This document shows positions 18,584-36,616 of a stretch of 64,000 nt of DNA, piece after piece. The translations under genes were made by a program, and so were the position numbers. Position 1 is the first letter of the stretch. Every line of letters starts with the position of its first letter. Origin of the DNA: Ostreococcus lucimarinus (taxonomy: Eukaryota); assembly GCA_000092065.1 (NCBI GenBank), contig CP000582.1. One strand, written 5' to 3'. The notes under the pieces were generated by a model. That model worked only from the letters and a program-made list of their open reading frames with translations. It did not search any database and had not been told where the DNA came from.

Positions 18584-21063
18584 TGGCGCCGATTACCGTG
18601 TACGAGACAAAATACGTCGAGGCGCAGTTGCGAATGATCGCCGTGAACGATGCTTTCATATGTTACGGTATTCGAAACGGGTTGATTCGAGTGTTTTCTA
18701 GAAAGTCTGGCAATGTGCGATCGTTGCTTCGCGGACACTCCGATTCAATCTCGACGCTCAAGTTTTTGGCGAACACCGACGTGTTGCTCTCGGTGGACGT
18801 GCGAGGACGGGTGATGGTTCGCAAGTTGAGTTTACAAGGCGCCGACGATGGGGCCTCGATCGATGTGAGCGACGATAACGATGCGGGATGGACGATCGGT
18901 TCGCAGAATTTGGTAGACTTCGACTTCGCAGTGGACACCCCGGACGGGCACCTGCCGCCGTCGGCGTGCTGGCTCCCGCTAGATTCGCGAAAACCCGGCA
19001 AGTGTGAATTCGCCCTGAGCGCGGGGACGTGCGTGGTGTGCTACGAGTGCTCGCTGATGAAGAAAGGGGATGCAATTGCGGCTGAGATCGATCTCAACGC
19101 CCCGCCAGCCATGGATGGTTTACAGGTGATCGAGTTTGATGCCCCGGTGTCTTGCGTGGACAGCGCCCCCGCGGGTCGCAAGCTCGTCGCCGCGAGCGAG
19201 GGCCGTGCGTACGTTTTGGTGAAGGAGGACGGTGAAACGGAGTTTGAGTGCACGGATACACTTCCATGGACGGTGGAAACCGCCGTCTTCGCCTCGGCTG
19301 AACGCGTAATTCTGGGTAACGATAATAACTCAGAGTTGATCGTCGTCGACGTGACGCAAGAAACTCCTTTCGCGGTGCAGCGCGTCGTCTTTAAGTCAGA
19401 CAGTGACAAACTTTTCAACGTATGCTTGCAGCATAACCCCGAAACAGGAATCGTATTGCTTTCGAACACGCGTATGAACACGGTGTACGCTTTACACTTC
19501 GAGAAGAGCTTTGATTACATTGCGCGCTTTGAGGCGTCGCAACCGATTTTGAGCTTTGACTCCCACGTGAAGTACGATGGCGACGGCAGTGCGACGATGC
19601 AATTGTTTTGCTTACAGACGCAAGCGATTCAAACCTTGTCCATGCCGGCTGAAGCATGCATTCCACCAGACGGAGCTCTCGAGGCGCTCGGCTCGTTGGG
19701 TACGCCCAAGACGAAAGGTTCGCTCGAGCACTCATCTTCAGCCACTCTGCTCACTCCGGATATGTTTGGCGGCGCTGAGCTCGCCGGCGACGAGGAGGAC
19801 GAAGAGGAAGAGCGTGCAGCGGTAGTTCCATCGAAAAAGGCTGCTGCGGCCCAACCAGCGTCGTCCGAAGAAAGCATGGGCGAGTCTGGTGCAGAGGAAG
19901 AAGAGGGAGAAGATGAAGAGTTTGAGTCTGCCAACATGAGTGAGAGCGGCGCTGGTGCGATTCCCGTCGCCGCCGCGTTCGATATGAAGCAGTTGAGAGC
20001 GACTATTCGTAACGAAATGCGCGAACTTCTGAACGAAGTTCGCGATGAGCGTCGTCTGGCTGCAGAAGAGCGCAAGGCAGACATGGAACGCGCTCGTAAG
20101 GCGAACGAAACCGCGGCAGCCAACTTGAAGCGAGACGTCACGAATGCTATCGCGGCTCTGTTGCAACAACATTCCGTGGACAATGCAAAGACTTTGGAAG
20201 CTGGCATCGGACGCGCTCAATCTGTTGCTGCAACAAGCGCGCAAACTGCGATGAAGTCCATCGTCGGTCCATCCATTGACGCCGCTGTTCGAGCGCAGAT
20301 GGAAACCTCCGTCGTGCCAAAAATGGAAATCGCGTGCTCGACGATGTTTACGCAAGTCAAGCACACGTTTGAACGAGGTATGGCTGACTTGAACACCGAG
20401 CTTCTCGCTGCGAGAGAATCTGCGGCAATTTCTCAAGCGACGCCGTTCGTCTCCGGTTTGCGCCAGGCGACGACCGAGGTTCGCCAAGCCGCAACAGCTT
20501 TGATGACCGATATCCCAAATCAAGTCGCGCAAGCCATGGCGAAGGTCACGGCGCGCGCACCTTCGGGCATGGGCGCACCTCCCGGGATGGCCCCAAAGAG
20601 CGTGACGCAAGGTAAGACGCTCGCTCAAATCGAACAGCGCTTGGACCCAACTGTGGAGATCAGCAAGTTGCTACAGGCAAACCAAATCGACCGCGCGTTC
20701 AATCTGGCGCTCAGCATGAGCAAGGTTGAAGTCGTCATGTGGCTCGTCAACCAAGTTGCGAGTGATCGAATCTTTGGCCAAACACCGTGTCCGTTGTCGC
20801 AAGGTGTGCTCTTGTCGCTTGTTCAGCAGCTTTCGAGCGATTTGACGACGCCAGACGCGCCCAAGAAGCTCGATTGGATTCGAGATTCTTGCCTCGCCGT
20901 CGATCCGGCGGATCCCGTGTTGCGGCAACACATGCGGCCGGTGCTCAGCACGGTGCACCAGTCGCTCATGGCTGCGGCCAATTCACCGACGAGTGCGCCA
21001 GAAGTACGCGCGGGGACACGATTGTGTATCCACGTCGTGAATTCCATGTTATCTTCTTTGTAA
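18584..21063 (+). CDS. WD40-repeat protein with an acidic/Ser-rich linker and C-terminal helical domain (architecture reminiscent of EDC4/VARICOSE-type proteins); 5' exon(s) probably missing from this ORF
   Basis: The ORF follows a TAG at 18581-18583 and has no ATG at its start. The motif ...GAGACTGACGATTC... plus tctAG immediately upstream mark a 3' splice site at 18583. A candidate exon 1 is 18398-18457 (MEEYVDVERREDGEDASALE) with donor GTGCGA at 18458 (phase 0). A further upstream acceptor candidate is at 18362. Confidence 0.6.
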
Positions 21064-21214
21064 GCCAAGGATTGTTATTTTCATCTATCGCTTCCACGTG
21101 ACCACGCGAGAGCATCTCGAATTATTCACACGCTCGCGCGTACTTCGCCGTAACGCTCAAAACTTCGACGTCTTCCAACGCGCGTGCGTACAATCCATCT
21201 TAGTTTGCTTGTTC

Positions 21215-23350
21215 ATGTCGTCGTCGTCGTCATCATCGTGGTCTAGAGATCCCTTCCTTGGAATGCTTCCTCGCTCGACGAAACTCATCCCCAAGGTGTC
21301 CATTCCCACGGCGATCGTTGAAGACGTCATTTCGCCATGGCGCGCGCTCGACGATCGATGCAAAACGTCGCCGGAATCACGGGCATCTATTGCGGTCGTA
21401 GACTCTTCGTCGCGTGGCGTCGATGCTGCACATTCCGTCGTCGAGTTCTCCTACCGCGCGCTCCGTCTCGAGGCGAGGACGCTCGCTTCGCAGTTGGAGC
21501 AAAATCACGGTATTCGAAAAGGCGATTCTGTGTGCTGCTTTCTAGATAACACAGCTGCATCTATCATCGCGTCCTATGCTATCGCGGGACTCGGAGCGCG
21601 ACGAGTCGACATCAATACTCGTTTGTCAGCTCGCGAGACGGCTTCACGCTTGAAGGTGGCAAACGTCAGAGTAATAATTGCTGGCGACGCTTACGCGAAT
21701 AAGATCGCTTCGGCGGTCTATTCGTTGATGATCGACTACTCCGATCTCAACGGTACTGACGAGCCGATGTCGATTTTGTACGCCGCAGCGCCCGGGGCGT
21801 CTTCTATGGCGGAACTGGCGCTGCCGAACTACGACACAGAGCAACTCGCAGAATTCATGGACATGATGGTCGAATCGACGCGCCTGTGCTTCGACGTCTA
21901 TTCTGCACATCGAGGTGGTGTCGACGTCGTATCAGGGGGTGGTACCGACACATACGATGCTTTCTTATCCGAGTCTGACGAGCCGTGTCTGGGTCTACTC
22001 TCTCAGCTTGAGCGAGGCGACGCGCTGTGCTGGACGCCGCGTCTGGCGGAAGAAGCGCTGCTTGATTGCGATTTTCAGGTCATGTTTACGAGTGGAACGA
22101 CGGGTGCACCAAAAGTCGTCACGCACACTCAAAGGCAAGTGATGTTACACGCGAAATCAGTCGCTCAGTGCTGTGCGTTTGCAAGCCACGACGTGTGGCT
22201 CCACGTGGCTCCGCTCTTTCACGCGATGGACGCCTTTGCGATGTACGCTTGCGTACTCGTCGGCGCCAAGCAAGTATGTACAGCCAGCGAAATCTTCGAT
22301 GTTAAAACGACGCTGCAAACGATGAAAGATGCAGGTGTTACGTTGACCGCGCTCACTTCAACGCATTTGCGAATGCTCGTTTCCGATCCAGCCTTTGCTG
22401 TCTCCGCAAAGCACTTGCGGATGTTATCTGTCGGCGGTTCGGCGGTTCCAGTAGACTTGGTGGCGTCATTAAAGTATCAGTGTCCCCAGTGCACGTACTT
22501 TACCGACTACGGAGCCACTGAGGCTTGTGGTAAGATTTGTACGACGCTCGGCGCGCCCTCGTCGTCCATTGAATCGCTCGCGCGGGCTGGCCACGCTATG
22601 CCCCTTTTCGACGTCTGCGTGGTCAAAGACTCGACAAGTATGGAATCGGTCGAATGGAACGACGTGACGAGAGGAGAAGTGCTTGTTCGAGGACCTACAG
22701 TGATAGGAACTTTTGATGGAAAATGGCACACCGTCGGCGACGTCGCCACGGTTGACGCGAGCGGCTCGGTCAAAATCGTAGATCGCTTGTCTGATATCAT
22801 CATCGTCGGGGGAGAAAACGTGTACTCGAGTGAAGTTGAAGCTGTGCTACTTGAACGTCCTGAAATCGAGGAATGTGCTGTGTTCGGTATGCCTGATAAA
22901 GTTTTGGGAGAAGTCGTGTGCGCTGCGATAGTGCTCAATTCGCGGCAGGCTTCACTGAATTCTAGTGAAGTCACAAAGCACTGCTCGTCGCGATTGGCCG
23001 ATTTTAAGCGTCCACAGCGATTGACGATTGTTGAGTCTTTACCGAAATCGCCCACTGGGAAAGTGCTGAAGCTGAAATTGCAGGCACAGCTTGCGACTCG
23101 CAGCCATGAGGACGGGACCCGTCCTCATGCGGAACTCAGCGATGTTGTTCGCCAAGAGTTTATTCATGCGATGGATTGGAACGATGACCGTGAGATTGAT
23201 ACGAAACAGACATTTTCGTCACTTGGCGTGCGATCAACGCAAGCCGTGTCTTTTGCGAATTTATTGTCTGATAGACTTGGACTTGATTTACCGTCGACGC
23301 TGATGTTTGATCATCCCAATCTCAATAGTGTCATCAACTTTGTCGCCGGA
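21215..23350 (+). other. PKS loading region: AMP-binding (acyl-activating) domain plus carrier protein
   Basis: The adenylation core motifs span about 22080-23070. The carrier Ser motif FSSLGVRSTQAVSFANLL is at about 23210-23260. Confidence 0.75.
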
Positions 23351-26300
23351 CGTACGATGATTCGGAGGAGCGCCTCGAGCATCACTCAGAAGCACGCGCC
23401 GCTATCGTTTTCAAGCGTCTTCGTCACCGAAATCAGCGATGAATTTCCACACGGGGAGATCGACGCTCAGACTGTCATACCGCTTCGCCGCTTTGACGTC
23501 GAGCACCACTTTTCTTGCGGCGATGATTTCGCAACAGCGCCTCTTGGTAGCATCGACGTTCGATTTGCGGCGCTGCTTGCAAACTTTGACGAAGAAGACT
23601 TGCTTGCTTGTGAATTGTCGCCCGTCGAAGCCTCGTACGTGGATCCGCAGCATCGCATTTTGCTCCGTCAAACGCTGCCTGTGCTTCATTTTTCAAATCA
23701 GAGTGCCGACGTCGTCACTGGCGTATTCGTCGGTTGTATGTGGGCTGACGATTACTCGAACGTTTTGTCGTCGTTTCAGTGTGTTTTCGTCTCGCCCAAC
23801 GCCACTCTTGGAATTGGATCCGGATTGGCTTTCCTCAGTGGTCGCATTTCGTTCTCCGCGAATTTGTCTGGGCCGGCGATCGGTTGTGACACGGCGTGCT
23901 CATCTTCTCTTGTTGCGTGCTCTCTTGGTCTGAGCTCGATGATGAAATTTGAATGCGACTCATCGCTGTGCGCGGGCACGAATCTTCTGCTTTTCGTAAA
24001 CACGCATTCAAAAATATGCCGATTAAACGCACTTGCCATGGATGGTCGCTGCAAGACACTGGACTACGCTGCGGATGGTTACGGACGAAGTGAGGGCGTC
24101 GGTAGTTGTCTACTATCGGTTGAAAATGGAAATCCGTGCCATGGGACGTTGGTTTACGTCGGAGTGAACCAAGACGCTCGTAGTGCTGCGCTCGTCGCGC
24201 CCCGCGGCGCCGCTCAATCAGCAGTCATAGCAGAGACGTGCTCGAGGTGCGTTGGGCAACTTACCGTTTACGAACTGCACGGTACTGGTACACAACTCGG
24301 AGATCCAATCGAAATCAGTGCTCTTCGCGAGGCGCTCGAGTGTACGGAGATAGATCTCGTGGCCATTTCCATCACGAGCGTGAAAGCTTCGTTTGGACAT
24401 AGCGAAGGCTCGGCTGGGATCGCTGGGCTTCTCTCCGCCATCATCTCCGACAAAAATCGTCAACGAATGCCGATTCATCATCTGATACATCTTAATCCTC
24501 ACGTAGCAGAGATATCGAATGGGTTGTCGACGCCATTTTCCTTTGGTCGAGTTTTGAGCGCCGGCGTGCGGATAAATCAGAGGAACGGTCGCGGTGAGCA
24601 CTCTGGCGTGAGCGCGTTCGGGATGTCAGGCACGAACGCGAGCGCACTACTTCGGTCAGCTGTACGTAGTGAACAGATAAAGCGCACGAATCGAAGAATT
24701 CTTCTCGATCTCGCGACTTGGTGCTCCATTGATCCGCCCACATTCCCGGCGCTGTTCAGCTTTTGCGTCGCTAGCGACAATGTACTCTTCCAAATCCGTA
24801 TCGATGCTCGCATTTACTCAGGAGCATTCGATATGAGCATTCAACACATGAAGTTCTTCCCTAGTGGACATTGCGTTGAAACCGCGCGTCAGTGCGCGTC
24901 AACGCTAGGGCAAAGATCAGCCGTTGTCAACAGCTTCACGATTCATTCGCCGTTGCGCTTGGCTGAAAATCGCGGCACAGACGTCGTCGTAACCGTTGAC
25001 AAAAGGTCTGGCTTCGTAACGACGGGATCAGCGGACGCATTGGTGAAGTATGCAACGTGTCGGTTTACAATACCCGTGCATTCAATTCCTCCCAAAGGCG
25101 CGCGATGGAACGCTGTCAGAGCAACACCGCCAACCACGATCACCGCTTCGATTCAGCGCACGCAAAAGGTGCGCACCGATTGCATCGACCCGATCTATCT
25201 GGAATCTTTGTTTCAGATAAATTCAGCTTTGCGGCTCGGTGCGACACTGCTAGGATCTCTCAACGCGTATTGCACGCTGACGCGATTTCCTCCGCACGGG
25301 CATCTCAGCGTTACCATGGCTGGTGAATGCGGTAACCTTGCGAGTGCGACGCGTATGACGGGACTCACGCTACATAGAGTGCGAGCAAATGCATTTACAA
25401 GCGCGCGACGAATATCTGACATGCTCTATCACGTATCTTGGTGCGCGGCTGGTGTCGCGACAGCGAGCGGTCGAACTCATCAATCTTTGCGATTAATCAA
25501 CCTCACGGCAAAAGCTTGCGATGCCGTCTGCGCCGGGTTGTCGGCGATTCAGTCTTTCGATGACGCGTCTATCTCAGCTGTTTCGGCAGAAGTTATGCCA
25601 CTCGCGTGTCGCGGCGACGCGTTGCTGGCGCTTGTGCGCACCGCCGCACAAGAGCTTCCTACGATTCGATTCGCTGGCATTCGTTGTGCCGAGAACGCTT
25701 CTTCCTATGACGCACGCGCAAAGTCGTACGCCCCAGGTGCAGCATGTGATATTAAAATCGACGCCCAAGTGGTGTACGAGCAACGCCTTTCTCGCGTCAA
25801 CATGGAATCGTCAACAAGTGAGAACCAAACGTCGTACGCCGTACTCATCACCGGAGGTCTCGGTGGCGTTGGTTTTCACATGGCTAAATGGCTACTTTCT
25901 CACGAGAGTTCTTCATTCACCAACTTACTGAGCCGGATCGGCCGTCAAAATGTGTCATTCGGCGATATCGATGGCAAGAGCGCGCTCATTATTCGTAGAT
26001 GTGATCTCTCTGATCACGAAGACGTTGTCGAAGTTCTCAAGTCGACGAAGATGCGGGCTCCTTTACGAAAGATTTTACACGCGAGTGGGATAATTCTCGA
26101 TAACACACTCGCGAAACAAAATCACGACGGCGTAAAACAAGTTTTTGCTGCAAAAGTAAGCGCGTTTGAAAACATCGAAATGTGTGTCGGGTGTCTGGAG
26201 GCGGTTCACACGAGCGTCGTTTGTAGTTCGATCGCTTCAACTTTTGGCTCACCTGGTCAAAGTAATTATTCTGCCGCAAACGCCGTCCTCGACTTTTACG

Positions 26301-29300: not shown

Positions 29301-32300
29301 AGAAGTACATCTTCATTACAGGCGGACTTGGGGCCATTGGAATGGAAGTAGCTCGAGAATTTGAGCGTCGTAGTTGGCGCGTTGTCCTATTGTCACGAAA
29401 CGGCCGCGCTCAAGCCTTCGGAGAAAGGCGAGGATCGCTAGTGAACGCCATCAAGTGCGATACATCTTGTTCGGACAGCCCATCGATTAGATCATGCAGC
29501 TTATTTTGTGTCGATAACACGGAGCGCTACGTGCTGCACGCTGCTGGCGTCTTATGCGACGCCCTTCTGAATCAAACGACCGCTCGGTCCGTCTTCGCGA
29601 CGATGGGCGCCAAATTGCTGTCTTCCAATCTTGCTTATGCCAAAGTCACGCGTGCGGTTGTGCTTTGCTCGTCCATCGCGGCGTTGACGGGCAATCCTGG
29701 CCAAACGAATTATGCAGCCGCTAATGCTTTACTCGACGCGGACGCCAGAGAGCAACGTTCTTTTGGAGATTCGTATTTCTCTGTGCAATGGGGCGGATGG
29801 GCAAACGTCGGCATGGCAGCAAGCAATCCGGCGGTTGTTCAGCGGTTGGTACGCATCGGTGCGGGTGCCGTAGATCCCAAGTTTGGGGTTGACATCATCG
29901 TTAAAGTCTTTCATGGGTTGATTCCGCACGAGTCCATAGCCGTGAGTCCGTTCAACTGGCGACAAATTTCAAAGTCTCTCCCGGCTTTCGGAATATTCAA
30001 GGATGTCGTCGAATGCGCTCATTCAACTACGACGACGGAAGTTAAGCCCCCTCGTGTCGGAACGAGCGCACTCGCGATGCAAACAATGAGCAAACGAGAT
30101 GTCGAGATAAAAATTTCTTCCTTAGTGCGCGCGCTAGTCGGTCGTGAGGTGGCGGTAAACGCCCCATTGATGGAAGCCGGGCTGGATTCGCAAGCAGCCG
30201 GAGAACTCAAGAATGAACTTGACGTCGCGTTCGGCGTCGAAGTCCCGGCTGTGGCCGTTTACGACTATCCTACAATAGCGGCACTGAGCTCATACATCGC
30301 GAGCGGCACGCAAATCGTGGAAAACTTTGAAAGTAGTCCCACAGTAGCAGAGCACTTTTTGAATGACGTCGTCGCTCACATCTCTGGCGCTGAATTATTA
30401 GTACCGACGCACTCGGGCGACGGCATTACACGCGTGCCGATGCATCGTTGGGACAACTCATGGTGGTGGGACAGAGAACAGATTTTCATACCTTCTTTCA
30501 GTGGTTTCTTGATCGGTTACGAGCTTTTTGATACGACGCTTTTCGGCATCGCGAGCACCGAGGCTTTGTTGATGGACGTGCAGCAGCGCTCCATTCTCGA
30601 AGGCGTCGCCAGCACGAGACTTGCGAGCCATGAAATCAAAGATGATGCGTTAGAAGGTGACTCGTGCGGAGTATATGTCGCGATATCATCCATGCAGTAC
30701 CAGGTCGAAGTGTTGGACAAGTTTTGGAGCAACCAGTTCTCTCCGTACATTGCAACAGGAAATACGCTTTCCGTCGCTGCTGGTCGTGTGTCTTTCATAT
30801 ATGGCTTGCGAGGTCCCTCCTTCTCTATAGACACCGCGTGTTCAACGAGTATTGTAGCGACGCACTTGTGCGTCGAAGGACTTCGATCGTTCGACTGCAC
30901 GTCAGGGATTGTGGCCGGCGTCATAAGCATCCTGGGACCAGGCGTGACTACAATTTTCTTCTCATCGGGTATGCTCTCACAATCGGGGCGGTGTAAGACC
31001 TTGGACGCCAGCGCAGACGGTTACGTGCGAGGCGAAGCTCGCGGTGTGTTCTTGGTTCACGGTATGGAGTCGCACGCAATATCATCTGGTGTCGCGATTG
31101 TCGGCTCAAGCATCAATCAAGACGGGCGGTCGAGCGGGCTTACGGCACCGAATGGGCCATCTCAACAGGCAGTCATGAAGCAAGCACTCCGAGCGTCGCG
31201 AGCAAATGGCGCCGAGATCGACAAGTTACAAATGCACGGCACAGGTACGCCACTAGGGGACCCCATTGAGGTTGGAGCCACCGCAGCGGTGCTGCAGAGA
31301 CAAAGTGGCGAACCCCTTACGCTCGAGGCTATCAAATCGCACGTGGGACACACGGAAACGGCGAGCGGAATGGTCGCATTAATGCAGCCCTTGCTTTCAC
31401 TCGTCGACTCTGACGTTGAGAAAATTCTGCACTTACGATGGGTAAATCCGCACATAGCATCTATCGTCGGCAAAGGTGCGTTCGTCTCTTCGCCGCGACA
31501 GAACTTTCCGAGAAACGCAAAGCTCGCGGGTGTGAGCTCGTTTGCCTTTCAAGGTACTAACGCGAACTCGATTCAACGCGTCACGATGGGAGACAAACTT
31601 CGACATCCAATCGTCTCACCGGCGTTCGTCAGAGAAACGTTTTATCCACTTCCAAAGTTACATCCGCAGATTCATGCGTTTTCAAAGACTTTCAAACGTG
31701 GCGACACGTTGAGGTTTTGCGCAAAAGTGAACGTGCGCACCCATGCACACTTACTCCACCACCGTGTGTTCGACAGAGCACTTTATCCAGGCGCTGGATT
31801 TCAAGAACTCGCGGGCGGCGCGGCGCGCACCTTCGACGCAAAGAGCGCTACAATACTGAATTCAGCCGTACCGGCGCCGTTGCAAATGTCTCTTCTGAAG
31901 GACACCGTGTTCGACGTTCGCATTCTCGCGCCAAGCGGTCGCCTGGATGTCCACAGTGCGAACATCATTTTCATGAAGTGCTACGTGCGTTTGCACGACA
32001 ACTGCAGATGTGAAAGCGTTACTACTTCGTCTAAGTCGTTCACAAAGCGTGCCAAGACGACAAAGATATCGCTCGCCAAGATCCATTCGCTCACAACGGA
32101 GCGCCACGTCGAATACTTCGTGCACCCGACGTGCTTGGATAGTACGCTACAACTCGGTGCAGTGATGAACGCGGGGTCCTCCGAGACAAAAGTTCCCGTG
32201 GGTGTGCACGCGTACGCTGCGCAGCAAATTTCTGTCAAACGGCGCAGTTTACACGCAAGCGCGAGCAATTCGAGTGGAAATTATGTACTCGAGCGCGCAA

Positions 32301-35300
32301 ATGTCGTCGGACTCGAGCTCAAGCCCATGCGCCGTGGAAAAGCACTCGTGACAAAACAAACGCGCATGCTATACGCGCTTCGTTGGTTTGCTCTACAACC
32401 GTGCGTTCCTGGTCAAAAGCGCACGGTGAGCGATTTAGAATCGTGTGCCACGTGTGGCGTCTTGACAGCCGCGTGCGCCGTCCAGTGTAATACGGCGACG
32501 GGTATCGAAATTGAAACCATTCGCACAACAAGCAACGATGCCCTGCACGGCTTTGCTCGGACGGTTGGACAAGAAATAAAGCAGCTTCGTACGGAGAGTG
32601 TTAGGTTCGACGGCGCGCGCACGCGGTACGTTGCGTCCGCAGATGCTTCGTTAAAGTTTGTCGGCGAATCGTATGATGTCCTCGTGCAGGCGAATATGAC
32701 GTACGGCTCACGTGTACGCAAGGCGCAAAATGTGATCAAACCGCCTTCCCGAAAGTCTCTCACTCTCGAAGTGCGTATCCCCCGTCAAGCTCCAAAGACG
32801 CTGCGCGTGATGATCACTGGTGGCTTGGGCGCCATCGGTGTCGAGTACGCGACACATGTGAACTCATCCACGATTGACGCTCGCGTGCGTCTTTTGGGTC
32901 GTTCTGGGCGCGGAGCGGAATTCGATGGACGTACATTCTCTTCGGTGCACGCGTGCAAATGTGACGCGGGATTTAGCGAAGATGTCAAACCTGTGGTATA
33001 TCACCAATGCGATGAGATTCTTCACGCGGCGGGCGTGTTACGTGACGGGTTAATTCGTTTTCAAAGTGCACTGTCAGTAAGAGTTGTCATCGGTGCGAAA
33101 GTTAACTCTTGGCAAACACTCGAATCACATCTCGTGGGTGCGATGGTACGACGCATAGTGCACTGTTCTTCGATCGCAGCTCTCACAGGCTCGAGTGGGC
33201 AGTCGAACTATTCCGCCGCGAACGCGTGTTTGGATTCAATCGCCGACTTTGCGAGATTTCGAGGCGACTCTATCAGCTCAATGCAATTTGGAGCGTGGTC
33301 GAACGCCGGTATGGCAGAGGCGCGGGTTTTAGAAAAGGTTAACTCGATGGGTTTCGGTGTCGTCACCCCTGAACTTGGCATGCGCGCTCTGGAGAGAGTC
33401 ATGTCGAGACAAGGCATCGGTAACGTCATCGCGACACCGTACGATTTCAAAAAGTTTGCAGAAGCTTTACCTGTCATACCGAGGATGTATCGAGACGTCG
33501 CCGTGAAGCAAAAACAGAAAACATCGAAGAAACAGCGCAAACACGTGGGCGGAGGCGCTGCGCGCTTGAGCGTCGCCGTCGTTCGTAGAAAAATTCAGCA
33601 GATTGCGACGCAAGTCATCGGAAGAGAAATAGGCTTGGACGAACCTCTCATGGACGCTGGGCTGGATAGTCTCGGAGGGCAGGAAATGAAGGCGCAGATT
33701 GAAGATGAATTTGCCGTCGAACTTCCCGCGACGGCCGCGTTTGATTACCCCACGGTTTCAGTGTTGGGGGATTTCGTCGCAGGGGAACTGGGCGCCGGCG
33801 ATGTTGATGAAGATGAAGACACAGCGGAAGGCTCTGGAATCTCAATCGCAGACGTTCAATCGCGCGTACTACAAATTGCCTGTCAAGTGATCGGTCGAGA
33901 TGTTGACCCGAACGAGCCGTTGATGGATTCGGGACTCGACAGTCTCGGCGGTCAAGAGATGAAGCAACAAATCGAAGATGAATTTGACATCGAGCTCCCA
34001 CCCACCGTGGTATTCGATTACCCGACCATTAAAGACTTGGCGACGTTCGTCGCTGACGAAATTGGAGCCACGGCTGCGACAAAGAAGTCACCAACCATCG
34101 TCGTCGCGTCGTCGTTGAAACACGTTGCAGTGCGGAACTTTGATCTTACCGCGCCTCACCCTCCCGATGCCGACGCGATTCGTCGCGTTCCATACCACAG
34201 ATGGGATCACGACTTTTATCAAGAAGCCGTGCAAGAGTACCACTCCTCTCGCGTGAGCGGCTACAACTTGCACGTCGCTCCGTTTGGTGGATTCATGACC
34301 AATTATATCTCGTTCGACAACCGGGCATTTGCGATTTCGGCGTTAGAAGCGCTCTACATGGACGTTCAGCAAAGATCTCTTCTAGAAGGCACGTTCCAAG
34401 CGACGACTGCTGGAACTTTCGCCGTCACTAGCGAAGACACGCTCGAAGGCTCGCTATCGTCTGGCGTCTGGGTCGGGATCGCCGCGTGCGATTACGCAGA
34501 TGAGGTATTGCGAAGGTATGAACACGCGCTTCATCCGTATTTGGTGAGCGGTACTTCTCTCAACGTCGCCGCTGGACGCATTTCGTACGTGTTCAACTTT
34601 AAAGGGCCCTCTGTGAGCGTAGATACTGCGTGTAGCTCCTCCATTGTCACGACGCACTCGGCGTTTATCAGTATGAGATCTTCAGAAATCGGTCGAGCAG
34701 TGTCTTGCGGAGTGCAAGCGATTCTCAGTGAGCACATCACTGGTGTTTTCCACTCTTCAGGAATGCTCGCGCCTGATGGCAGATGTAAAACGCTTGATGC
34801 GAGTGCCGACGGTTACGTCAGAGGCGAGGCTCGAGGCGTGCTCGCCCTCGAAGCCGTTGACGCGAGTGAAGCGGTGAATGTCACGAATGTTTTACTAGCC
34901 GGAGCGGCAGTAAATCAAGACGGGCGGAGTTCTTCGTTGACTGCTCCAAATGGACCGACTCAGAAGACTGTCATTCGCGCCGCCATTAGTACAGCTTCCG
35001 CGATGACGCGAGACGTGGACGTTCTGCAACTACACGGAACTGGCACCGCGCTGGGCGATCCAATTGAGATTGGAGCAGCGCTGAGCGCTCTCGAAAGATT
35101 ACCTGCAGATCGCGCTTTTACGTTGGAAGCAGTAAAAACGCACGTCGGACACACTGAAACAGCGGCAGGGGCGGTATCGTTGGTGCAAGAGACGAAAAAG
35201 TTGGCCGGCTGTGCTACGTCGCTCGTCGCGCACTTGCGCTTGGTAAGCCCACATTTGCTGGGTTTGTTTGCCAGTGCCCAAACGAATGGCACACACATCG

Positions 35301-36616
35301 CCCGACAGTTTTCAGCTCGTTTGGCATCACTCGTTAGCGTTTCGGGCTTCGCCTTTCAAGGCACGAACGCAAACGCTGTCCTACGATTGAACTCTTCAAA
35401 ATTGCCCGCGCCGCGTCATTGTCCCAAAGCCATCTTTCATCGATCGCGCTTCTGGCCACTTCCAGAGCTCCACGTCCACTTGAAGACGTTTGATGGCAGC
35501 AACGATGCCGTTACTTTTCGGTTTACCGCGTGTGTTGACGCGAGATTACATTCGCATTTGCTCGGTTGCAAAACTTCCGCGCGAGAAGCCATCTTTCCGA
35601 GTGCCGGTTTCCTTGAACTCGCGTGCGCGGCTTCACGAATATTCGATCGCGAACCCATGGCGTGCGACGCGGCCGTCTTCGCACCTCTAGCCTTACGTAC
35701 GAATGGCGTGTACTTCTTCACAGTGGCCGTGAACGCGAAATCGGGGGAAGTCGAGGCGAAGGAGTCTTTGGACCAAGGCGAGGCGTGTATGCAATGCCGA
35801 GTTCGTCGCACAGATTTGGCGTCGAGGCGAACAGCCCCCGGTCCCGTTTCATCATTGCTCGTCGGGCGTTCGGATTCATCGAATAGAACTGTTCGAGCAC
35901 GCGTCAAGGCGAGGAGCGAGCAATCGCACTTCGAATATCGCATAGATCCTTGTGCGCTCGAGAGCTCGTTCGCCGCGAGATCGGCGATGCGCGATCCGGG
36001 CGTGCTCCGGGCGTGCGCTAGGCACTACACCACGCCTCGGACGGCAGCGATGTCTATGATCGCGACCATATGTGATCATGCACACACAATGAACGAAGTT
36101 TACACGATCGGTGTCGTATTCAAGAGGCCGTTTGATCGAGTTTACCGACTCATCAGACAAACGTTCGCGGCGACACCCGAAGCGACGACTTCACTTCGCC
36201 GTGAAGTTGTGGCGCCGTTACCGCCGCTCGAATCGCTCGAATCAATCCAGCGTAAAATCTATGCGCATTGTTCGCGAATTACAGGCGCCTCGTCGATCGC
36301 GGGCGGCGACGCGCTCGTCGATCTTGGCATGGATTCCTTGGCGGCGGCGGAGTTGCGTGCGGCAATTCAAAACGAGTTCGGAATGTTGCTCCCCATTCAC
36401 GCCGCGTTCGAGTGTCCCACCGCCGATGCACTCGCGAGTTACATCGTTCGCGAACATACAAAAAAGCGAAAAGCGGAGACCGCGGGCGCAACGCGACCGG
36501 CGTCGACTGTTGAAGGCGAGACGGTTCGTTGGCTTGTCGTTATCGCGGTTATCGTCGTCGTGATGGTTTTACACATCGTAAAGTTGACGAGAGCAGTCTC
36601 GCTCGAAGATGCTTGA
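21215..36616 (+). CDS. Giant modular type I polyketide synthase, AT-less (trans-AT-like). Domain order: adenylation-ACP; KS-X-KR-ACP; KS-DH-KR-ACP; KS-DH-KR-ACP-ACP; KS-DH-ACP; C-terminal hydrophobic helix
   Basis: A single ORF is open from a GTG at 21098 and the first ATG is at 21215 (5133 aa). Adenylation motifs are FTSGTTGAPK, YGATEA, GEVLVRGP and PKSPTGKVLK. The four KS domains have active-site Cys codons at 23897, 27350, 30839 and 34631 (DTACSS/TS), each with HGTGTxLGDPIE and VGHxExAAG. The three KR domains have GGLGxxG and YSAANA/YAAANA. The three DH domains read HAHLLDHVVAERPLYPGAGFQE, HAHLLHHRVFDRALYPGAGFQE and HSHLLGC...FPSAGFLE. ACPs carry GLDSL/GMDSL. No GHSxG acyltransferase motif occurs anywhere in the ORF. 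Confidence 0.9.
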   Translation: MSSSSSSSWSRDPFLGMLPRSTKLIPKVSIPTAIVEDVISPWRALDDRCKTSPESRASIAVVDSSSRGVDAAHSVVEFSYRALRLEARTLASQLEQNHGIRKGDSVCCFLDNTAASIIASYAIAGLGARRVDINTRLSARETASRLKVANVRVIIAGDAYANKIASAVYSLMIDYSDLNGTDEPMSILYAAAPGASSMAELALPNYDTEQLAEFMDMMVESTRLCFDVYSAHRGGVDVVSGGGTDTYDAFLSESDEPCLGLLSQLERGDALCWTPRLAEEALLDCDFQVMFTSGTTGAPKVVTHTQRQVMLHAKSVAQCCAFASHDVWLHVAPLFHAMDAFAMYACVLVGAKQVCTASEIFDVKTTLQTMKDAGVTLTALTSTHLRMLVSDPAFAVSAKHLRMLSVGGSAVPVDLVASLKYQCPQCTYFTDYGATEACGKICTTLGAPSSSIESLARAGHAMPLFDVCVVKDSTSMESVEWNDVTRGEVLVRGPTVIGTFDGKWHTVGDVATVDASGSVKIVDRLSDIIIVGGENVYSSEVEAVLLERPEIEECAVFGMPDKVLGEVVCAAIVLNSRQASLNSSEVTKHCSSRLADFKRPQRLTIVESLPKSPTGKVLKLKLQAQLATRSHEDGTRPHAELSDVVRQEFIHAMDWNDDREIDTKQTFSSLGVRSTQAVSFANLLSDRLGLDLPSTLMFDHPNLNSVINFVAGRTMIRRSASSITQKHAPLSFSSVFVTEISDEFPHGEIDAQTVIPLRRFDVEHHFSCGDDFATAPLGSIDVRFAALLANFDEEDLLACELSPVEASYVDPQHRILLRQTLPVLHFSNQSADVVTGVFVGCMWADDYSNVLSSFQCVFVSPNATLGIGSGLAFLSGRISFSANLSGPAIGCDTACSSSLVACSLGLSSMMKFECDSSLCAGTNLLLFVNTHSKICRLNALAMDGRCKTLDYAADGYGRSEGVGSCLLSVENGNPCHGTLVYVGVNQDARSAALVAPRGAAQSAVIAETCSRCVGQLTVYELHGTGTQLGDPIEISALREALECTEIDLVAISITSVKASFGHSEGSAGIAGLLSAIISDKNRQRMPIHHLIHLNPHVAEISNGLSTPFSFGRVLSAGVRINQRNGRGEHSGVSAFGMSGTNASALLRSAVRSEQIKRTNRRILLDLATWCSIDPPTFPALFSFCVASDNVLFQIRIDARIYSGAFDMSIQHMKFFPSGHCVETARQCASTLGQRSAVVNSFTIHSPLRLAENRGTDVVVTVDKRSGFVTTGSADALVKYATCRFTIPVHSIPPKGARWNAVRATPPTTITASIQRTQKVRTDCIDPIYLESLFQINSALRLGATLLGSLNAYCTLTRFPPHGHLSVTMAGECGNLASATRMTGLTLHRVRANAFTSARRISDMLYHVSWCAAGVATASGRTHQSLRLINLTAKACDAVCAGLSAIQSFDDASISAVSAEVMPLACRGDALLALVRTAAQELPTIRFAGIRCAENASSYDARAKSYAPGAACDIKIDAQVVYEQRLSRVNMESSTSENQTSYAVLITGGLGGVGFHMAKWLLSHESSSFTNLLSRIGRQNVSFGDIDGKSALIIRRCDLSDHEDVVEVLKSTKMRAPLRKILHASGIILDNTLAKQNHDGVKQVFAAKVSAFENIEMCVGCLEAVHTSVVCSSIASTFGSPGQSNYSAANAVLDFYAISSQYHGRPLSSVQWGAWCSVGMASRGGSYIARAERVGFGTITPDEGVDVLRRIFTGWTTSIVASPFDWNKMVKNAPMFTMLESFLGTSGHKIAQPKVIEDKERIRFRVRSIVESILGGSPDADAPLASSGLDSLSANELKMEIDAEFGVQTPATLVYDYPSINTLSACVVSVLQPSIKLVEEYHSPQMNMTAQTDICGVILGGDIRTAATMRFPVDAISIAPYGRWDNNFWMDARNMTFPFSSAFMVHFTEFDNDLFGIPGVETLLLDPQQRTLLEGAFAVVDISSQQDDTTVWVGITVSQYKTDVINVYWAPAFHSSMGTGSLPSVAAGRLSYVFSMSGASMSVDTACSSSLVACSLAFDSLRKQCLGSSALVCGTVAMMSVSGTIDRHYANMLSVECRCKTLDASADGFIEGEATGIMSMTSALRASGEGVSISGTAVNQDGHSASLTAPNGPAQTRVIREALCSANMQGEEMESISLHGTGTPLGDPIELGAALGALQDCKKLMLDAVKSHVGHCETAAGIVALLRAHATVSDSIAHPVLHLRSLNQHCSSIIQTSDTNAPIVIPRQKVDANFKTMGISAFAFQGTNAHAIQRLNSGTVRAAVSRFAFHRREFWPLPTLHPHILSCTASTSDFARFCGRVEPRGHAHLLDHVVAERPLYPGAGFQELCAASARLMFAINVVAVESVVPAPLVMRTRELTLFTVSTELRKGEIRIQTKSGAVTHTKCFARRACAQPPQQASLKLLMKSVMPRSCASVHVPDWHLGYVVHPASLDASLQLAAVVDLTNTEVKVPVGAKAYVSVKSSSNAPTHFASLLKSNHSLERSRIVGLQVKTMRRTASRAAAHMPASKDTYTLRWFVVRSTGRSSKCVHLTLRKWIVTKSVTCATIGLAQNLASSRAAALNADRARAMEAVRAIVRTVAQEVQGVQFESTRHRAEDSHYVERSSTAAFVQGAPHEVSVDALALSEPRLRRAVVVDKWSRKHHLNQRIFARGDTSEKYIFITGGLGAIGMEVAREFERRSWRVVLLSRNGRAQAFGERRGSLVNAIKCDTSCSDSPSIRSCSLFCVDNTERYVLHAAGVLCDALLNQTTARSVFATMGAKLLSSNLAYAKVTRAVVLCSSIAALTGNPGQTNYAAANALLDADAREQRSFGDSYFSVQWGGWANVGMAASNPAVVQRLVRIGAGAVDPKFGVDIIVKVFHGLIPHESIAVSPFNWRQISKSLPAFGIFKDVVECAHSTTTTEVKPPRVGTSALAMQTMSKRDVEIKISSLVRALVGREVAVNAPLMEAGLDSQAAGELKNELDVAFGVEVPAVAVYDYPTIAALSSYIASGTQIVENFESSPTVAEHFLNDVVAHISGAELLVPTHSGDGITRVPMHRWDNSWWWDREQIFIPSFSGFLIGYELFDTTLFGIASTEALLMDVQQRSILEGVASTRLASHEIKDDALEGDSCGVYVAISSMQYQVEVLDKFWSNQFSPYIATGNTLSVAAGRVSFIYGLRGPSFSIDTACSTSIVATHLCVEGLRSFDCTSGIVAGVISILGPGVTTIFFSSGMLSQSGRCKTLDASADGYVRGEARGVFLVHGMESHAISSGVAIVGSSINQDGRSSGLTAPNGPSQQAVMKQALRASRANGAEIDKLQMHGTGTPLGDPIEVGATAAVLQRQSGEPLTLEAIKSHVGHTETASGMVALMQPLLSLVDSDVEKILHLRWVNPHIASIVGKGAFVSSPRQNFPRNAKLAGVSSFAFQGTNANSIQRVTMGDKLRHPIVSPAFVRETFYPLPKLHPQIHAFSKTFKRGDTLRFCAKVNVRTHAHLLHHRVFDRALYPGAGFQELAGGAARTFDAKSATILNSAVPAPLQMSLLKDTVFDVRILAPSGRLDVHSANIIFMKCYVRLHDNCRCESVTTSSKSFTKRAKTTKISLAKIHSLTTERHVEYFVHPTCLDSTLQLGAVMNAGSSETKVPVGVHAYAAQQISVKRRSLHASASNSSGNYVLERANVVGLELKPMRRGKALVTKQTRMLYALRWFALQPCVPGQKRTVSDLESCATCGVLTAACAVQCNTATGIEIETIRTTSNDALHGFARTVGQEIKQLRTESVRFDGARTRYVASADASLKFVGESYDVLVQANMTYGSRVRKAQNVIKPPSRKSLTLEVRIPRQAPKTLRVMITGGLGAIGVEYATHVNSSTIDARVRLLGRSGRGAEFDGRTFSSVHACKCDAGFSEDVKPVVYHQCDEILHAAGVLRDGLIRFQSALSVRVVIGAKVNSWQTLESHLVGAMVRRIVHCSSIAALTGSSGQSNYSAANACLDSIADFARFRGDSISSMQFGAWSNAGMAEARVLEKVNSMGFGVVTPELGMRALERVMSRQGIGNVIATPYDFKKFAEALPVIPRMYRDVAVKQKQKTSKKQRKHVGGGAARLSVAVVRRKIQQIATQVIGREIGLDEPLMDAGLDSLGGQEMKAQIEDEFAVELPATAAFDYPTVSVLGDFVAGELGAGDVDEDEDTAEGSGISIADVQSRVLQIACQVIGRDVDPNEPLMDSGLDSLGGQEMKQQIEDEFDIELPPTVVFDYPTIKDLATFVADEIGATAATKKSPTIVVASSLKHVAVRNFDLTAPHPPDADAIRRVPYHRWDHDFYQEAVQEYHSSRVSGYNLHVAPFGGFMTNYISFDNRAFAISALEALYMDVQQRSLLEGTFQATTAGTFAVTSEDTLEGSLSSGVWVGIAACDYADEVLRRYEHALHPYLVSGTSLNVAAGRISYVFNFKGPSVSVDTACSSSIVTTHSAFISMRSSEIGRAVSCGVQAILSEHITGVFHSSGMLAPDGRCKTLDASADGYVRGEARGVLALEAVDASEAVNVTNVLLAGAAVNQDGRSSSLTAPNGPTQKTVIRAAISTASAMTRDVDVLQLHGTGTALGDPIEIGAALSALERLPADRAFTLEAVKTHVGHTETAAGAVSLVQETKKLAGCATSLVAHLRLVSPHLLGLFASAQTNGTHIARQFSARLASLVSVSGFAFQGTNANAVLRLNSSKLPAPRHCPKAIFHRSRFWPLPELHVHLKTFDGSNDAVTFRFTACVDARLHSHLLGCKTSAREAIFPSAGFLELACAASRIFDREPMACDAAVFAPLALRTNGVYFFTVAVNAKSGEVEAKESLDQGEACMQCRVRRTDLASRRTAPGPVSSLLVGRSDSSNRTVRARVKARSEQSHFEYRIDPCALESSFAARSAMRDPGVLRACARHYTTPRTAAMSMIATICDHAHTMNEVYTIGVVFKRPFDRVYRLIRQTFAATPEATTSLRREVVAPLPPLESLESIQRKIYAHCSRITGASSIAGGDALVDLGMDSLAAAELRAAIQNEFGMLLPIHAAFECPTADALASYIVREHTKKRKAETAGATRPASTVEGETVRWLVVIAVIVVVMVLHIVKLTRAVSLEDA
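23400..26830 (+). other. PKS module 1: KS, then an approximately 390-aa domain of unclear type, then KR and ACP
   Basis: KS is about 23400-24690. KR runs from about 25840 (VLITGGLGGVGF, YSAANAVLD). The ACP GLDSLSANE is at about 26690. The region 24700-25830 has no acyltransferase signature and no canonical DH signature. Confidence 0.7.
26900..30310 (+). other. PKS module 2: KS-DH-KR-ACP
   Basis: KS about 26900-28100. The DH motif is at 28250. KR is at 29310-29900 (IFITGGLGAIGMEV). The ACP GLDSQAAGE is at about 30190. Confidence 0.75.
30380..34060 (+). other. PKS module 3: KS-DH-KR-ACP-ACP (tandem carrier doublet)
   Basis: KS about 30380-31580. DH is at 31740. KR is at 32800-33400. Two near-identical carriers are at about 33660 and 33930 (GLDSLGGQEMKAQIEDEF and GLDSLGGQEMKQQIEDEF). 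Confidence 0.75.
34180..36450 (+). other. PKS module 4: KS-DH-ACP (no KR)
   Basis: KS about 34180-35400. DH is at about 35560. The ACP GMDSLAAAELRAAIQNEF is at about 36320. There is no room for, and no motif of, a KR between the DH and the ACP. Confidence 0.7.
36527..36595 (+). other. Predicted C-terminal transmembrane/tail-anchor helix of the PKS (WLVVIAVIVVVMVLHIV)
   Basis: A 17-23-residue, purely hydrophobic stretch lies 10 residues before the stop. No thioesterase or reductase domain follows the last ACP. Confidence 0.55.

What the first reader, a model, noticed from the sequence alone, without database searches (positions are those of the whole stretch)
21098..36616. 15.4-kb single-exon, AT-less modular type I PKS with acyl-adenylating loader, four KS modules and no release domain
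By direct motif reading the ORF encodes an AMP-binding domain and ACP, followed by four condensing modules. All four KS domains retain the Cys-His-His triad. There are three KR domains, three DH-like domains, six carrier domains including a tandem doublet in module 3, and a final module of KS-DH-ACP without KR. No GHSxG acyltransferase motif is present anywhere, and only about 45 residues separate each KS C-terminus from the following DH motif. Extender units must therefore be supplied in trans. This matches published reports that chlorophyte and other algal modular PKSs have lost cis-AT domains. The exact domain set, loader type and product here are unknown. The trans-AT partner is not in this window.
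Basis: partly seen in the sequence, partly recalled or inferred. Interest (0 to 1): 0.7.

Follow-up and report, generated by a model that had tools for sequence, protein, structure and literature searches.

The report
Known AT-less algal polyketide synthase gene
This is the already catalogued giant polyketide synthase gene OluPKS2 of the tiny marine green alga Ostreococcus lucimarinus, read correctly by the first stage; the only apparently unreported feature is a conserved hydrophobic C-terminal tail that probably anchors the enzyme in a membrane.

Summary
There is one uninterrupted ORF at 21098-36616 (+), and the likely ATG is at 21215. It encodes an ANL-type acyl-adenylating loader and ACP, then four KS modules and six carrier domains including a tandem pair. 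There is no acyltransferase and no thioesterase.

The window is nuclear DNA of Ostreococcus lucimarinus CCE9901. A neighbouring gene matches XP_001416046.1 exactly. The domain string equals OluPKS2 (JGI 29828) in Shelest et al. 2015, which already classes it as a non-iterative trans-AT PKS. The core finding is therefore already known.

Refinements:
- All four modules carry DH-like segments. Only DH2 and DH3 keep the catalytic His and DxxxQ, and both motifs are conserved in an orthologue. DH1 and DH4 are His-less relics.
- KS-to-DH spacing is 27-39 residues, which excludes a hidden AT.
- No AT, TE or PPTase gene lies in the 64 kb.
- A convergent gene starts 22 nt after the stop, so the gene truly ends at ACP.
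- Orthologues sit at the same syntenic locus in related picoalgae.
- All eight orthologues end in an 18-25-residue hydrophobic segment typical of a tail anchor. I found no report of this in the searchable literature.

The product, the trans-AT partner and the release mechanism remain unknown.

The parts
21215..36616 (+). Likely complete CDS of OluPKS2 (5133 aa plus stop). The ORF is open from 21098, and the first ATG is at 21215.
   Evidence: N-terminal conservation with P0151; domain string equals OluPKS2 in PMC4661987 Table S2
21401..23062 (+). ANL-superfamily acyl-adenylating loader (AMP-binding plus AMP-binding_C). It is closest to long-chain fatty-acid-CoA ligase, MenE and FadD13 types.
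   Evidence: Pfam (3e-51, 7e-19); PDB; NCBIfam PRK06187 at 305 bits, below its cut-off
23153..23344 (+). Loading carrier domain ACP0 (Ser in GVRST)
23489..24667 (+). KS1 (Cys in DTACS motif at 931, HGTGT at 1061, GHSE at 1100)
24746..25537 (+). Degenerate DH-like segment of module 1. His is replaced by Met and DxxxQ by ExxxQ. It is only 28% identical to the orthologue, with deletions.
   Evidence: Pfam 19.6 bits, below the cut-off of 27
25841..26356 (+). KR1 (GGLGGVG, Ser/Tyr/Lys present, LxD B-type signature)
26624..26812 (+). ACP1 (GLDSL)
26951..28132 (+). KS2
28172..28957 (+). DH2, probably active (LLDHVVAERPLYPGAGFQE; LDASLQL). Both motifs are conserved in the orthologue.
   Evidence: Pfam PKS_DH_N 32.9 bits, above the cut-off
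29312..29803 (+). KR2
30119..30298 (+). ACP2 (GLDSQ)
30413..31627 (+). KS3
31661..32467 (+). DH3, probably active (LLHHRVFDRALYPGAGFQE; LDSTLQL). Both motifs are conserved in the orthologue.
   Evidence: Pfam 29.8 bits, above the cut-off
32807..33301 (+). KR3
33590..34051 (+). Tandem carrier doublet ACP3a and ACP3b (65% identical, both GLDSL)
34172..35422 (+). KS4
35450..36217 (+). Terminal DH-like segment, His-less (His replaced by Cys, with a one-residue insertion). It carries a conserved P..LES motif in place of DxxxQ and is homologous to DH2.
   Evidence: BLASTP against DH2 E=2e-19; PDB DH profile hits; orthologue alignment A3; no Pfam hit
36254..36445 (+). ACP4 (GMDSL), the last catalytic-cycle domain
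36533..36589 (+). C-terminal hydrophobic segment LVVIAVIVVVMVLHIVKLT, a putative tail-anchor transmembrane helix, with 8 residues between it and the stop
   Evidence: KD-19 = 2.86 against 1.92 for the next best stretch in the protein; present in 8 of 8 orthologues against 1 of 237 control PKSs at 2.0 or more; modelled as a helix

Best explanation
The ORF is the nuclear gene for OluPKS2 of Ostreococcus lucimarinus CCE9901. It is a functional, intron-free, non-iterative type I polyketide synthase with no integrated acyltransferase.

Proposed mode of action (the domains are shown by sequence; the chemistry is inferred):
1. The N-terminal ANL-type ligase activates a carboxylic acid as its acyl-adenylate and loads it on ACP0. 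The ligase resembles fatty-acid ligases, so the starter may be a fatty acid.
2. Four KS modules each add one malonyl unit. A discrete acyltransferase encoded elsewhere in the genome must place that unit on the module's ACP.
3. Module 1 (KS, dead DH, B-type KR, ACP) would leave a beta-hydroxyl.
4. Modules 2 and 3 (KS, DH, KR, ACP; ACP doubled in module 3) would each give an enoyl unit.
5. Module 4 (KS, His-less DH-like, ACP) would leave a beta-keto thioester.
6. There is no thioesterase or reductase, so the chain must be released or passed on by a partner acting in trans.
7. The protein ends in a tail-anchor-like transmembrane helix and has no long N-terminal presequence. The megasynthase therefore most likely sits on the cytosolic face of a membrane and hands a lipid-like product to that membrane.
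For: - ORF and domains.
- No AT: Pfam; NCBIfam; FabD tblastn and six-frame motif scan. KS-to-DH spacing is 27-39 aa, and no segment of 250 aa or more is unassigned.
- Eukaryotic context and organism.
- Published identity: Shelest 2015 Table S2, OluPKS2, same domain string, labelled trans-AT.
- Functionality: the catalytic motifs of KS1-3, KR1, DH2 and DH3 are conserved in an orthologue that is 48-59% identical. Motif positions in four further full-length relatives at 47-54% identity indicate four KS modules and a tandem ACP pair in each. A 379-member cluster at 90% identity holds many 5117-aa members from marine metagenomes.
- Synteny: S1 / EDC4 / PKS / convergent gene / L9 is kept in L002, and S1 / EDC4 / PKS in L003, whose contig ends 336 bp past the PKS.
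- Gene end: a convergent gene ends 22 nt after the stop.
- Loader type.
- DH assignment.
- Tail.
Against: - No transcript or protein data were examined, so expression and the single-exon structure are inferred.
- The trans-acting AT has not been identified here or in the paper read. Shelest 2015 infers it from absence.
- The starter, the stereochemistry and the activity of each reductive domain are predictions from motifs only.
- DH2 and DH3 have HxxxE/DxxxxP rather than the canonical HxxxGxxxxP.
- The terminal-region model is poor (mean pLDDT 50.7).
- The membrane anchor rests on hydropathy and conservation alone. One orthologue tail (P0154) is only moderately hydrophobic (KD-19 1.88).
Confidence: 0.85

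Rival explanations
1. OluPKS2 is only the first subunit of a split assembly line. Its ACP-bound tetraketide-extended chain is passed to the N-terminal KS of another PKS protein. A candidate is OluPKS1, which is listed as starting directly with KS and having no loader. That would explain the absence of a release domain. This reading does not conflict with the best explanation.
For: Table S2 of Shelest 2015 lists OluPKS1 as KS-KR-ACP-KS-KR-ACP-KS2-ACP with no loading module, and OluPKS2 as ending in ACP. No TE or reductase is present in the ORF or the window.
Against: OluPKS1 also lacks a listed release domain. No docking motifs were identified. The conserved C-terminal hydrophobic helix occupies the place where a C-terminal docking domain would be. 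OluPKS1 could not be examined with these tools.
Confidence: 0.2
2. The hydrophobic C-terminus is not a membrane anchor. It could be a dimerisation or docking helix, or a non-functional read-through into 3' sequence.
For: Only hydropathy and conservation of character support the anchor, and there is no localisation data. The AF2 model merely shows a helix. One orthologue tail is only moderately hydrophobic (P0154).
Against: All 8 orthologues, down to about 33% identity in the terminal region, keep an 18-25-residue stretch almost devoid of charged residues. It is preceded by basic residues and followed by only 1-12 residues, most of them with basic residues, before the stop. The tail sequence itself is not conserved. 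Only 1 of 237 other PKS hits reaches KD-19 of 2.0 in its tail. Read-through junk would not be maintained across species.
Confidence: 0.25
3. The gene is a decaying relic or pseudogene. It may be weakly expressed or not at all, and its product no longer matters.
For: Two of four DH-like domains are degenerate. Its GC3 (0.558) is the lowest of the 20 candidate ORFs compared across the window, which in this genome could reflect weak codon adaptation. KR1 is missing in some orthologues.
Against: The reading frame of 5172 codons is intact (P about 1e-95). All KS, KR and ACP catalytic motifs are intact and conserved in orthologues. Uninterrupted orthologous ORFs occupy the same locus in at least three further genomes.
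Confidence: 0.05
4. The ORF is bacterial: either contamination or a recent horizontal-transfer island of a bacterial trans-AT PKS.
For: The gene has no introns, its GC is lower than its flanks, and the best solved-structure match for KS3 is a bacterial trans-AT bimodule (7zma).
Against: It is embedded between eukaryotic genes on both sides, with 151 nt and 22 nt spacers. The same synteny is seen in two other genomes whose flanking genes are 69-93% identical. The closest full-length relatives are the syntenic orthologues. Non-algal hits reach only 35-44% identity over the KS and are mostly cis-AT actinomycete PKSs.
Confidence: 0.02

Closest known systems
OluPKS2 (JGI protein 29828) of Ostreococcus lucimarinus, catalogued in Shelest et al. 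2015, BMC Genomics 16:1015 (PMC4661987, Table S2)
   Same: Same organism. [quoted passage not shown] It is classed there as non-iterative and predicted trans-AT. KS1 motifs DTACSSS and HGTGT match their Table S3.
   Different: The published string lists no DH domains and no C-terminal hydrophobic segment. Here four DH-like segments are resolved (two intact, two His-less), plus the tail. Identity was established by organism and architecture, not by comparing sequences with the JGI model.
OtaPKS6 (Ot02g07060) of Ostreococcus tauri and unnamed metagenomic orthologues (P0151-P0154, P0031)
   Same: Loader, four KS modules, a tandem ACP in module 3, a terminal KS-(DH-like)-ACP and a hydrophobic tail. 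The syntenic position is shared where it could be checked.
   Different: Global identity is only 47-54%, while flanking genes are 69-93% identical. Module 1 lacks KR in P0151 and P0152, as in the published OtaPKS6 string, whereas O. lucimarinus keeps KR1. That P0151 is from O. tauri is a guess based on its length and architecture.
Bacterial trans-AT PKSs (bacillaene, Brevibacillus bimodule 7zma and others)
   Same: Multimodular with no integrated AT. Tandem ACPs and inactive DH-like domains occur in both. The best solved-structure match of KS3 is a trans-AT bimodule KS (4e-91).
   Different: The next best matches are cis-AT KSs (CurL, DEBS), ahead of PksL and PksJ. KS is followed by DH after only 27-39 residues, so the roughly 100-residue KS-flanking subdomain usual in bacterial trans-AT modules (my own knowledge, not tested against a reference set) has no room. 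There is no gene cluster with an AT nearby. Shelest 2015 place the algal KSs in clades of their own and propose independent AT loss.
Chlorophyte giant PKSs such as Chlamydomonas PKS1 and the BOC1 giant PKS loci of Mamiellales (bioRxiv 10.1101/2025.04.21.649811)
   Same: AT-less multimodular type I PKSs of green algae with unknown products. GC is lower than in the standard genome.
   Different: This gene is smaller (4 modules) and lies between standard-GC housekeeping genes at a stable syntenic locus. The preprint instead describes a structurally fluid, transposon-associated outlier region.

Membership tests
Non-iterative (modular) type I polyketide synthase | Several collinear modules, each with a KS carrying the Cys-His-His triad | tested here: met
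   Four KS domains with DTACS motifs at 931/2082/3245/4509, HGTGT at 1061/2217/3380/4646 and GH(S/C/T)E at 1100/2252/3417/4684
Non-iterative (modular) type I polyketide synthase | A carrier domain with a phosphopantetheine-attachment Ser closing each module | tested here: met
   Six PP-binding domains with G(L/M/V)(D/R)S motifs. Phosphopantetheinylation itself was not tested.
trans-AT (AT-less) PKS | No acyltransferase domain integrated in the modules | tested here: met
   No PF00698 hit at E<=0.01 in overlapping 900-aa tiles. No AT family in NCBIfam. The only GHSxG is the KS1 His motif. KS-to-DH spacing is 27-39 aa.
trans-AT (AT-less) PKS | A discrete acyltransferase that loads the ACPs in trans | not testable with these tools
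   None in the 64-kb window and none called in the sequence held for the syntenic loci L002 and L003. The rest of the genome could not be searched. Shelest 2015 do not name one.
trans-AT (AT-less) PKS | KS domains belonging to the bacterial trans-AT KS clade | tested here: inconclusive
   The best PDB match is a trans-AT bimodule KS, followed by cis-AT KSs. The nearest non-algal sequences are mostly cis-AT actinomycete PKSs. The published tree puts prasinophyte KSs in clades of their own. No tree was built here.
OluPKS2 / OtaPKS6 orthogroup of Mamiellales | Organism, domain order and syntenic position | tested here: met
   Exact match of the neighbour gene to O. lucimarinus XP_001416046.1. The domain string is identical to Table S2. 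The S1 / EDC4 / PKS / convergent gene / L9 order is shared with L002, and the upstream part (fibrillin / S1 / EDC4 / PKS) with L003.
PKS dehydratase (double hot-dog) domains | Catalytic His in HxxxGxxxxP and Asp in DxxxQ/H | tested here: inconclusive
   DH2 and DH3 have the His and DxxxQ with Gly replaced by Glu or Asp. Both motifs are conserved in the orthologue, and both domains pass the Pfam cut-off. DH1 and DH4 lack the His, and the Asp is replaced by Glu or lost. A profile of all four hits the CurF, AmbC and rifamycin DH structures at about 1e-7.
Fatty acyl-AMP ligase (FAAL) loaders | Membership of the FAAL clade (FadD32 / FadD28-like, with the FAAL insertion) | tested here: not met
   The best 60 solved-structure matches are acyl-CoA ligases (MenE, FadD13, 4CL, among others), other ANL enzymes and aryl-acid adenylating enzymes, with no chain named as a FAAL. 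The best NCBIfam match is long-chain-fatty-acid-CoA ligase, below its cut-off. The insertion itself was not examined.
Tail-anchored membrane proteins | A single hydrophobic transmembrane segment within about 40 residues of the C-terminus and no other membrane segment | tested here: met
   KD-19 is 2.86 at 5146-5164, with 8 residues between the segment and the stop. The next best stretch in the protein is 1.92. All 8 orthologues share the feature.
Tail-anchored membrane proteins | Post-translational membrane insertion with the bulk of the protein in the cytosol | not testable with these tools
   Indirect only. Homology with orthologues starts within about 10 residues of the N-terminus, which leaves no room for a long presequence.

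The most novel reading that the evidence does not exclude
The OluPKS2 orthogroup of Mamiellales may be a naturally tail-anchored modular PKS. In this reading a ~0.55-MDa AT-less assembly line is tethered by a single C-terminal transmembrane helix placed directly after its last ACP, and it has no release domain. The ACP-bound product would then be off-loaded at, or into, a membrane by a membrane-resident partner rather than by a thioesterase. I found no description of such an arrangement in the searchable literature. If true, it would tie an orphan, widely distributed picoalgal PKS to membrane-lipid chemistry.
Probability: 0.55. Interest if true: 0.55.

Novelty: already known. Interest (0 to 1): 0.3.

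Why it matters
Ostreococcus and its relatives are among the most abundant marine picoeukaryotes, and no product is known for any of their giant PKSs. This gene is abundant in ocean metagenomes: its cluster at 90% identity has 379 members.

As a gene it is already catalogued, so the first-stage finding adds little. Three points from this check may be useful:
- It is one of the smallest and most stably placed of these PKSs. It has four modules, an intron-free gene and a syntenic locus, and it has an orthologue in O. tauri, which can be transformed (my own knowledge; PMC8002553 is listed but was not read). That makes it a practical entry point for a knock-out with metabolomics.
- The refined reductive-domain map predicts a specific chain pattern: hydroxy, two enoyl units, then a terminal beta-keto.
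- The conserved tail anchor together with the missing release domain gives a testable hypothesis on where and how the product is delivered.

Tried and rejected
They were replaced by overlapping tiles.
With 4973 aa it timed out. The last-module query worked, but it returned only proteins of 1500 aa or less and not the self cluster.
- The initial impression that the window was bacterial, from dense ORFs on both strands, was dropped.
- Continuation of the gene downstream, or a TE in the unannotated 36.6-41.7 kb stretch, was rejected. The ORFs there have no Pfam hits, and a convergent minus-strand gene and an L9-like ORF occupy the space.
- A hidden AT in the linkers was rejected on length.
- AlphaFold2 of the terminal 393 residues with a 7-sequence alignment gave mean pLDDT 50.7. 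I ran no fold search on it, and the second hot-dog half of DH4 remains unconfirmed structurally.
- Naming the organisms of the orthologues failed, because all are unnamed metagenome calls.
- KS clade assignment from solved structures was ambiguous, and no phylogeny was built.
That negative result is supportive only. It agrees with the Pfam and NCBIfam negatives.

Full report
**Observation.** The window holds one uninterrupted ORF at 21098-36616 on the + strand, 5172 codons long. With the base composition of that segment a stop codon is expected every ~24 codons. The chance of such an ORF is about 1e-95. The GTG at 21098 is only the bacterial ORF-caller's start. The first ATG is Met40 (nt 21215) and the second is Met56. 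The orthologue P0151 starts MPPRDIFMGMLP, which aligns with our SRDPFLGMLP upstream of Met56. I therefore take 21215 as the start, giving 5133 aa.

**Domains.** Pfam on overlapping 900-aa tiles, an internal alignment of the four modules and motif positions give the following:
- an AMP-binding loader with its C-terminal subdomain, followed by ACP0;
- module 1: KS, DH-like, KR, ACP;
- module 2: KS, DH, KR, ACP;
- module 3: KS, DH, KR, ACP, ACP;
- module 4: KS, DH-like, ACP.

All four KS domains keep DTACS, HGTGT and GH(S/C/T)E. The three KRs keep GGLGxxG and the Ser/Tyr/Lys residues, and they carry an LxD signature. From general knowledge that signature marks B-type reduction. Six carrier domains carry the attachment serine, and the module-3 pair is 65% identical.

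**No acyltransferase.**
- No Acyl_transf_1 hit appeared at E<=0.01, and no AT family appeared in NCBIfam.
- The single GHSxG is the second-His motif of KS1.
- The KS C-terminus (GTNA) is followed by the DH N-terminus after 27-39 residues.
- No unassigned stretch of 250 residues or more remains.
No GHSxGE motif occurs in any of six frames.
- The neighbouring ORFs contain no AT, thioesterase or phosphopantetheinyl transferase.

**Where it comes from.** The neighbours are eukaryotic and plastid-related. They include a mitochondrial carrier, Ost-alpha, PAP-fibrillin, an EDC4-like decapping factor, PEX1, an RSH (RelA/SpoT), a fused glycyl-tRNA synthetase alpha/beta, a Rubisco LSMT-like protein, beta-amylase, patatin and phosphomannose isomerase. 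The methyltransferase at 14456-15532 is identical to XP_001416046.1 of Ostreococcus lucimarinus CCE9901. The PKS sequence from Met56 is itself present in the collection, in a cluster of 379 members at 90% identity drawn from marine metagenomes.

**Already published.** Shelest et al. 2015 (PMC4661987) list three type I PKSs for O. lucimarinus, with 14, 4 and 4 KS domains. [quoted passage not shown] This is exactly the architecture found here, minus the DH-like segments. The other four-KS protein, OluPKS1, has no loader. The paper infers the trans-acting AT from the absence of integrated ATs and does not identify it.

**Refinement of the DH domains.**
- A profile of the four DH-like segments hits solved PKS dehydratases (CurF, AmbC, fluvirucin, rifamycin) at about 1e-7.
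- DH2 and DH3 pass the Pfam cut-off. They keep the catalytic His and DxxxQ, with Gly replaced by Glu or Asp. These motifs are strictly conserved in a 48-59% identical orthologue, L001/P0031.
- The module-1 segment has Met in place of the His. It is only 28% identical to the orthologue, with deletions across the motif. The His is also absent in P0153 and P0154.
- The module-4 segment is clearly homologous to DH2 (E=2e-19). It has Cys at the His position, with a one-residue insertion. In place of DxxxQ it carries a P..LES motif that is conserved in all orthologues.
- An AlphaFold2 model of the terminal 393 residues was of low confidence (mean pLDDT 50.7). It showed a first hot-dog, the ACP and a long terminal helix. 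I did not use it for fold searching.

**Loader.** The best solved relatives are MenE, FadD13 and other acyl-CoA ligases. The best NCBIfam model is long-chain-fatty-acid-CoA ligase, at 305 bits against a cut-off of 476. The loader is therefore a CoA-ligase-like ANL domain fused to an ACP. It belongs to neither the NRPS A-domain clade nor the FAAL clade. A fatty or other carboxylic acid starter is plausible but not shown.

**Gene end and the tail.** A convergent minus-strand ORF ends at 36638, 22 nt after the PKS stop. A ribosomal L9-like ORF follows at 38151-38585. The same arrangement is seen in orthologous contig L002. The PKS therefore ends at ACP4 plus 56 residues. Those residues contain by far the most hydrophobic 19-mer of the protein, LVVIAVIVVVMVLHIVKLT, with KD 2.86 against 1.92 for the next best stretch.

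An exhaustive search with the terminal 393 residues found four full-length relatives and two fragments. With P0031, that makes eight orthologues including the query. All eight end in the same way: ACP, a polar and basic spacer, 18-25 hydrophobic residues, then 1-12 residues to the stop. The tail sequence itself is not conserved. KD-19 in the last 45 residues is 1.9-3.4 for these eight. The median is 0.52 for 237 other PKS hits, and only one of those reaches 2.0. This pattern is typical of a tail-anchor transmembrane helix. Homology with orthologues starts within about 10 residues of the N-terminus, so a long presequence is unlikely. I found no paper describing a naturally tail-anchored modular PKS. 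Shelest 2015 contains no occurrence of "transmembrane".

**Evolutionary context.**
- Two orthologous contigs keep the upstream order S1-domain gene (-), EDC4-like (+), PKS (+). L002 also keeps the convergent gene and L9 downstream, whereas the L003 contig ends 336 bp past the PKS.
- Their flanking proteins are 69-93% identical to ours, but the PKSs are only 47-54% identical. The PKS evolves much faster than its neighbours.
- P0151 and P0152 lack KR1: the KS1-KS2 spacing is about 750-780 residues against 1151 here. This matches the published OtaPKS6 string.
- PKS GC3 is below that of the flanking genes in all three loci: 0.558 against 0.63-0.83, 0.522 against 0.64-0.71, and 0.658 against 0.70-0.76.
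- A recent preprint reports giant, structurally variable PKS loci in low-GC outlier regions of Mamiellales. This gene sits among standard-GC housekeeping genes.

**KS affinity.** The best solved match of KS3 is a bacterial trans-AT bimodule (7zma, 4e-91). It is followed by cis-AT CurL and DEBS, which rank ahead of PksL and PksJ. The nearest non-algal sequences to KS4 are mostly actinomycete cis-AT PKSs at 35-44% identity. This is ambiguous. It is compatible with the published view that algal AT loss was independent.

**Mechanism.** The following is inferred from the domains:
1. Acid activation and loading on ACP0.
2. Four malonyl extensions, supplied by an unidentified discrete AT.
3. Beta-hydroxy after module 1.
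4. Enoyl after modules 2 and 3.
5. Beta-keto after module 4.
6. Release or transfer by a partner acting in trans, possibly at the membrane that holds the tail.

**Verdict.** The gene is already catalogued as OluPKS2, and interest in the finding as given is low to moderate. The conserved tail anchor and the map of intact and dead DH domains are the only additions, and both are predictions from sequence.

Noticed in passing
window 36533-36589 (PKS residues 5146-5164): The PKS ends in a strongly hydrophobic 19-mer 8 residues before the stop. An equivalent tail is present in all 8 orthologues but in almost no other PKS hit. It is a putative tail-anchor helix, and I found no report of it in the literature searched.
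   Followed up: yes
window 21263-36616 against its neighbours; L002 and L003: The PKS is a low-GC3 island (0.558 against 0.63-0.83 for the 19 other candidate ORFs compared across the window). The same tendency holds at the orthologous loci (0.522 against 0.64-0.71; 0.658 against 0.70-0.76). The cause is unknown; weak codon adaptation or a property shared with the low-GC 'outlier' PKS regions are possibilities.
   Followed up: partly
P0151, P0152 against window 25841-26356 (KR1): Module 1 keeps a KR in O. lucimarinus, L001, P0153 and P0154, but the KR is missing in P0151 and P0152. This matches the published OtaPKS6 string. It is a presence/absence difference between close relatives that should change the product at one position.
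   Followed up: partly
L002, L003 against window 16472-21063: The flanking S1-domain and EDC4-like proteins are 69-93% identical between these genomes, while the PKS between them is only 47-54% identical. The PKS diverges much faster than its syntenic neighbours.
   Followed up: partly
cluster members P0004, P0006; P0032, P0141: Several JGI/IMG copies of this AT-less protein are named 'acyl transferase domain-containing protein'. No AT domain is present in them. The label may be a generic whole-PKS orthology label (my guess) and is misleading.
   Followed up: no
L001 around 10001-10025: In the metagenomic orthologue the PKS is split into two overlapping ORFs in different frames, exactly within the tandem-ACP repeat. 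This is more likely an assembly or sequencing frameshift in repeated sequence than a real break.
   Followed up: no
P0033, P0039, P0081: NCBI holds Bathycoccus prasinos proteins with KS domains, two of them (P0039, P0081) with carrier domains as well, whereas Shelest 2015 Table 1 lists no type I PKS for Bathycoccus. Newer assemblies may change that census.
   Followed up: no
window 36638-38449 (-) and 38600-41700: A convergent ORF of 603 codons (coiled-coil-like C-terminal half) ends 22 nt after the PKS stop. The following ~3 kb (GC up to 0.68) has only ORFs without Pfam hits, including 39672-41063 (+). These genes are unannotated by the tools used.
   Followed up: partly
window 38151-38585 (+): This ORF's translation resembles the C-terminal part of ribosomal protein L9 (my reading of the translation; no domain scan was run on this ORF). 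The full gene may start upstream or contain an intron. An L9 gene occupies the same relative position in L002.
   Followed up: no
window 44019-47390 (-): A single ORF fuses the glycyl-tRNA synthetase alpha and beta subunits (bacterial-type GlyRS). As far as I recall this is the organellar form in plants.
   Followed up: no
window 60872-63609 (+): Two adjacent, partly overlapping ORFs both hit the Sulfotransfer_2 family. They could be one gene with an intron or frameshift, or a tandem pair.
   Followed up: no
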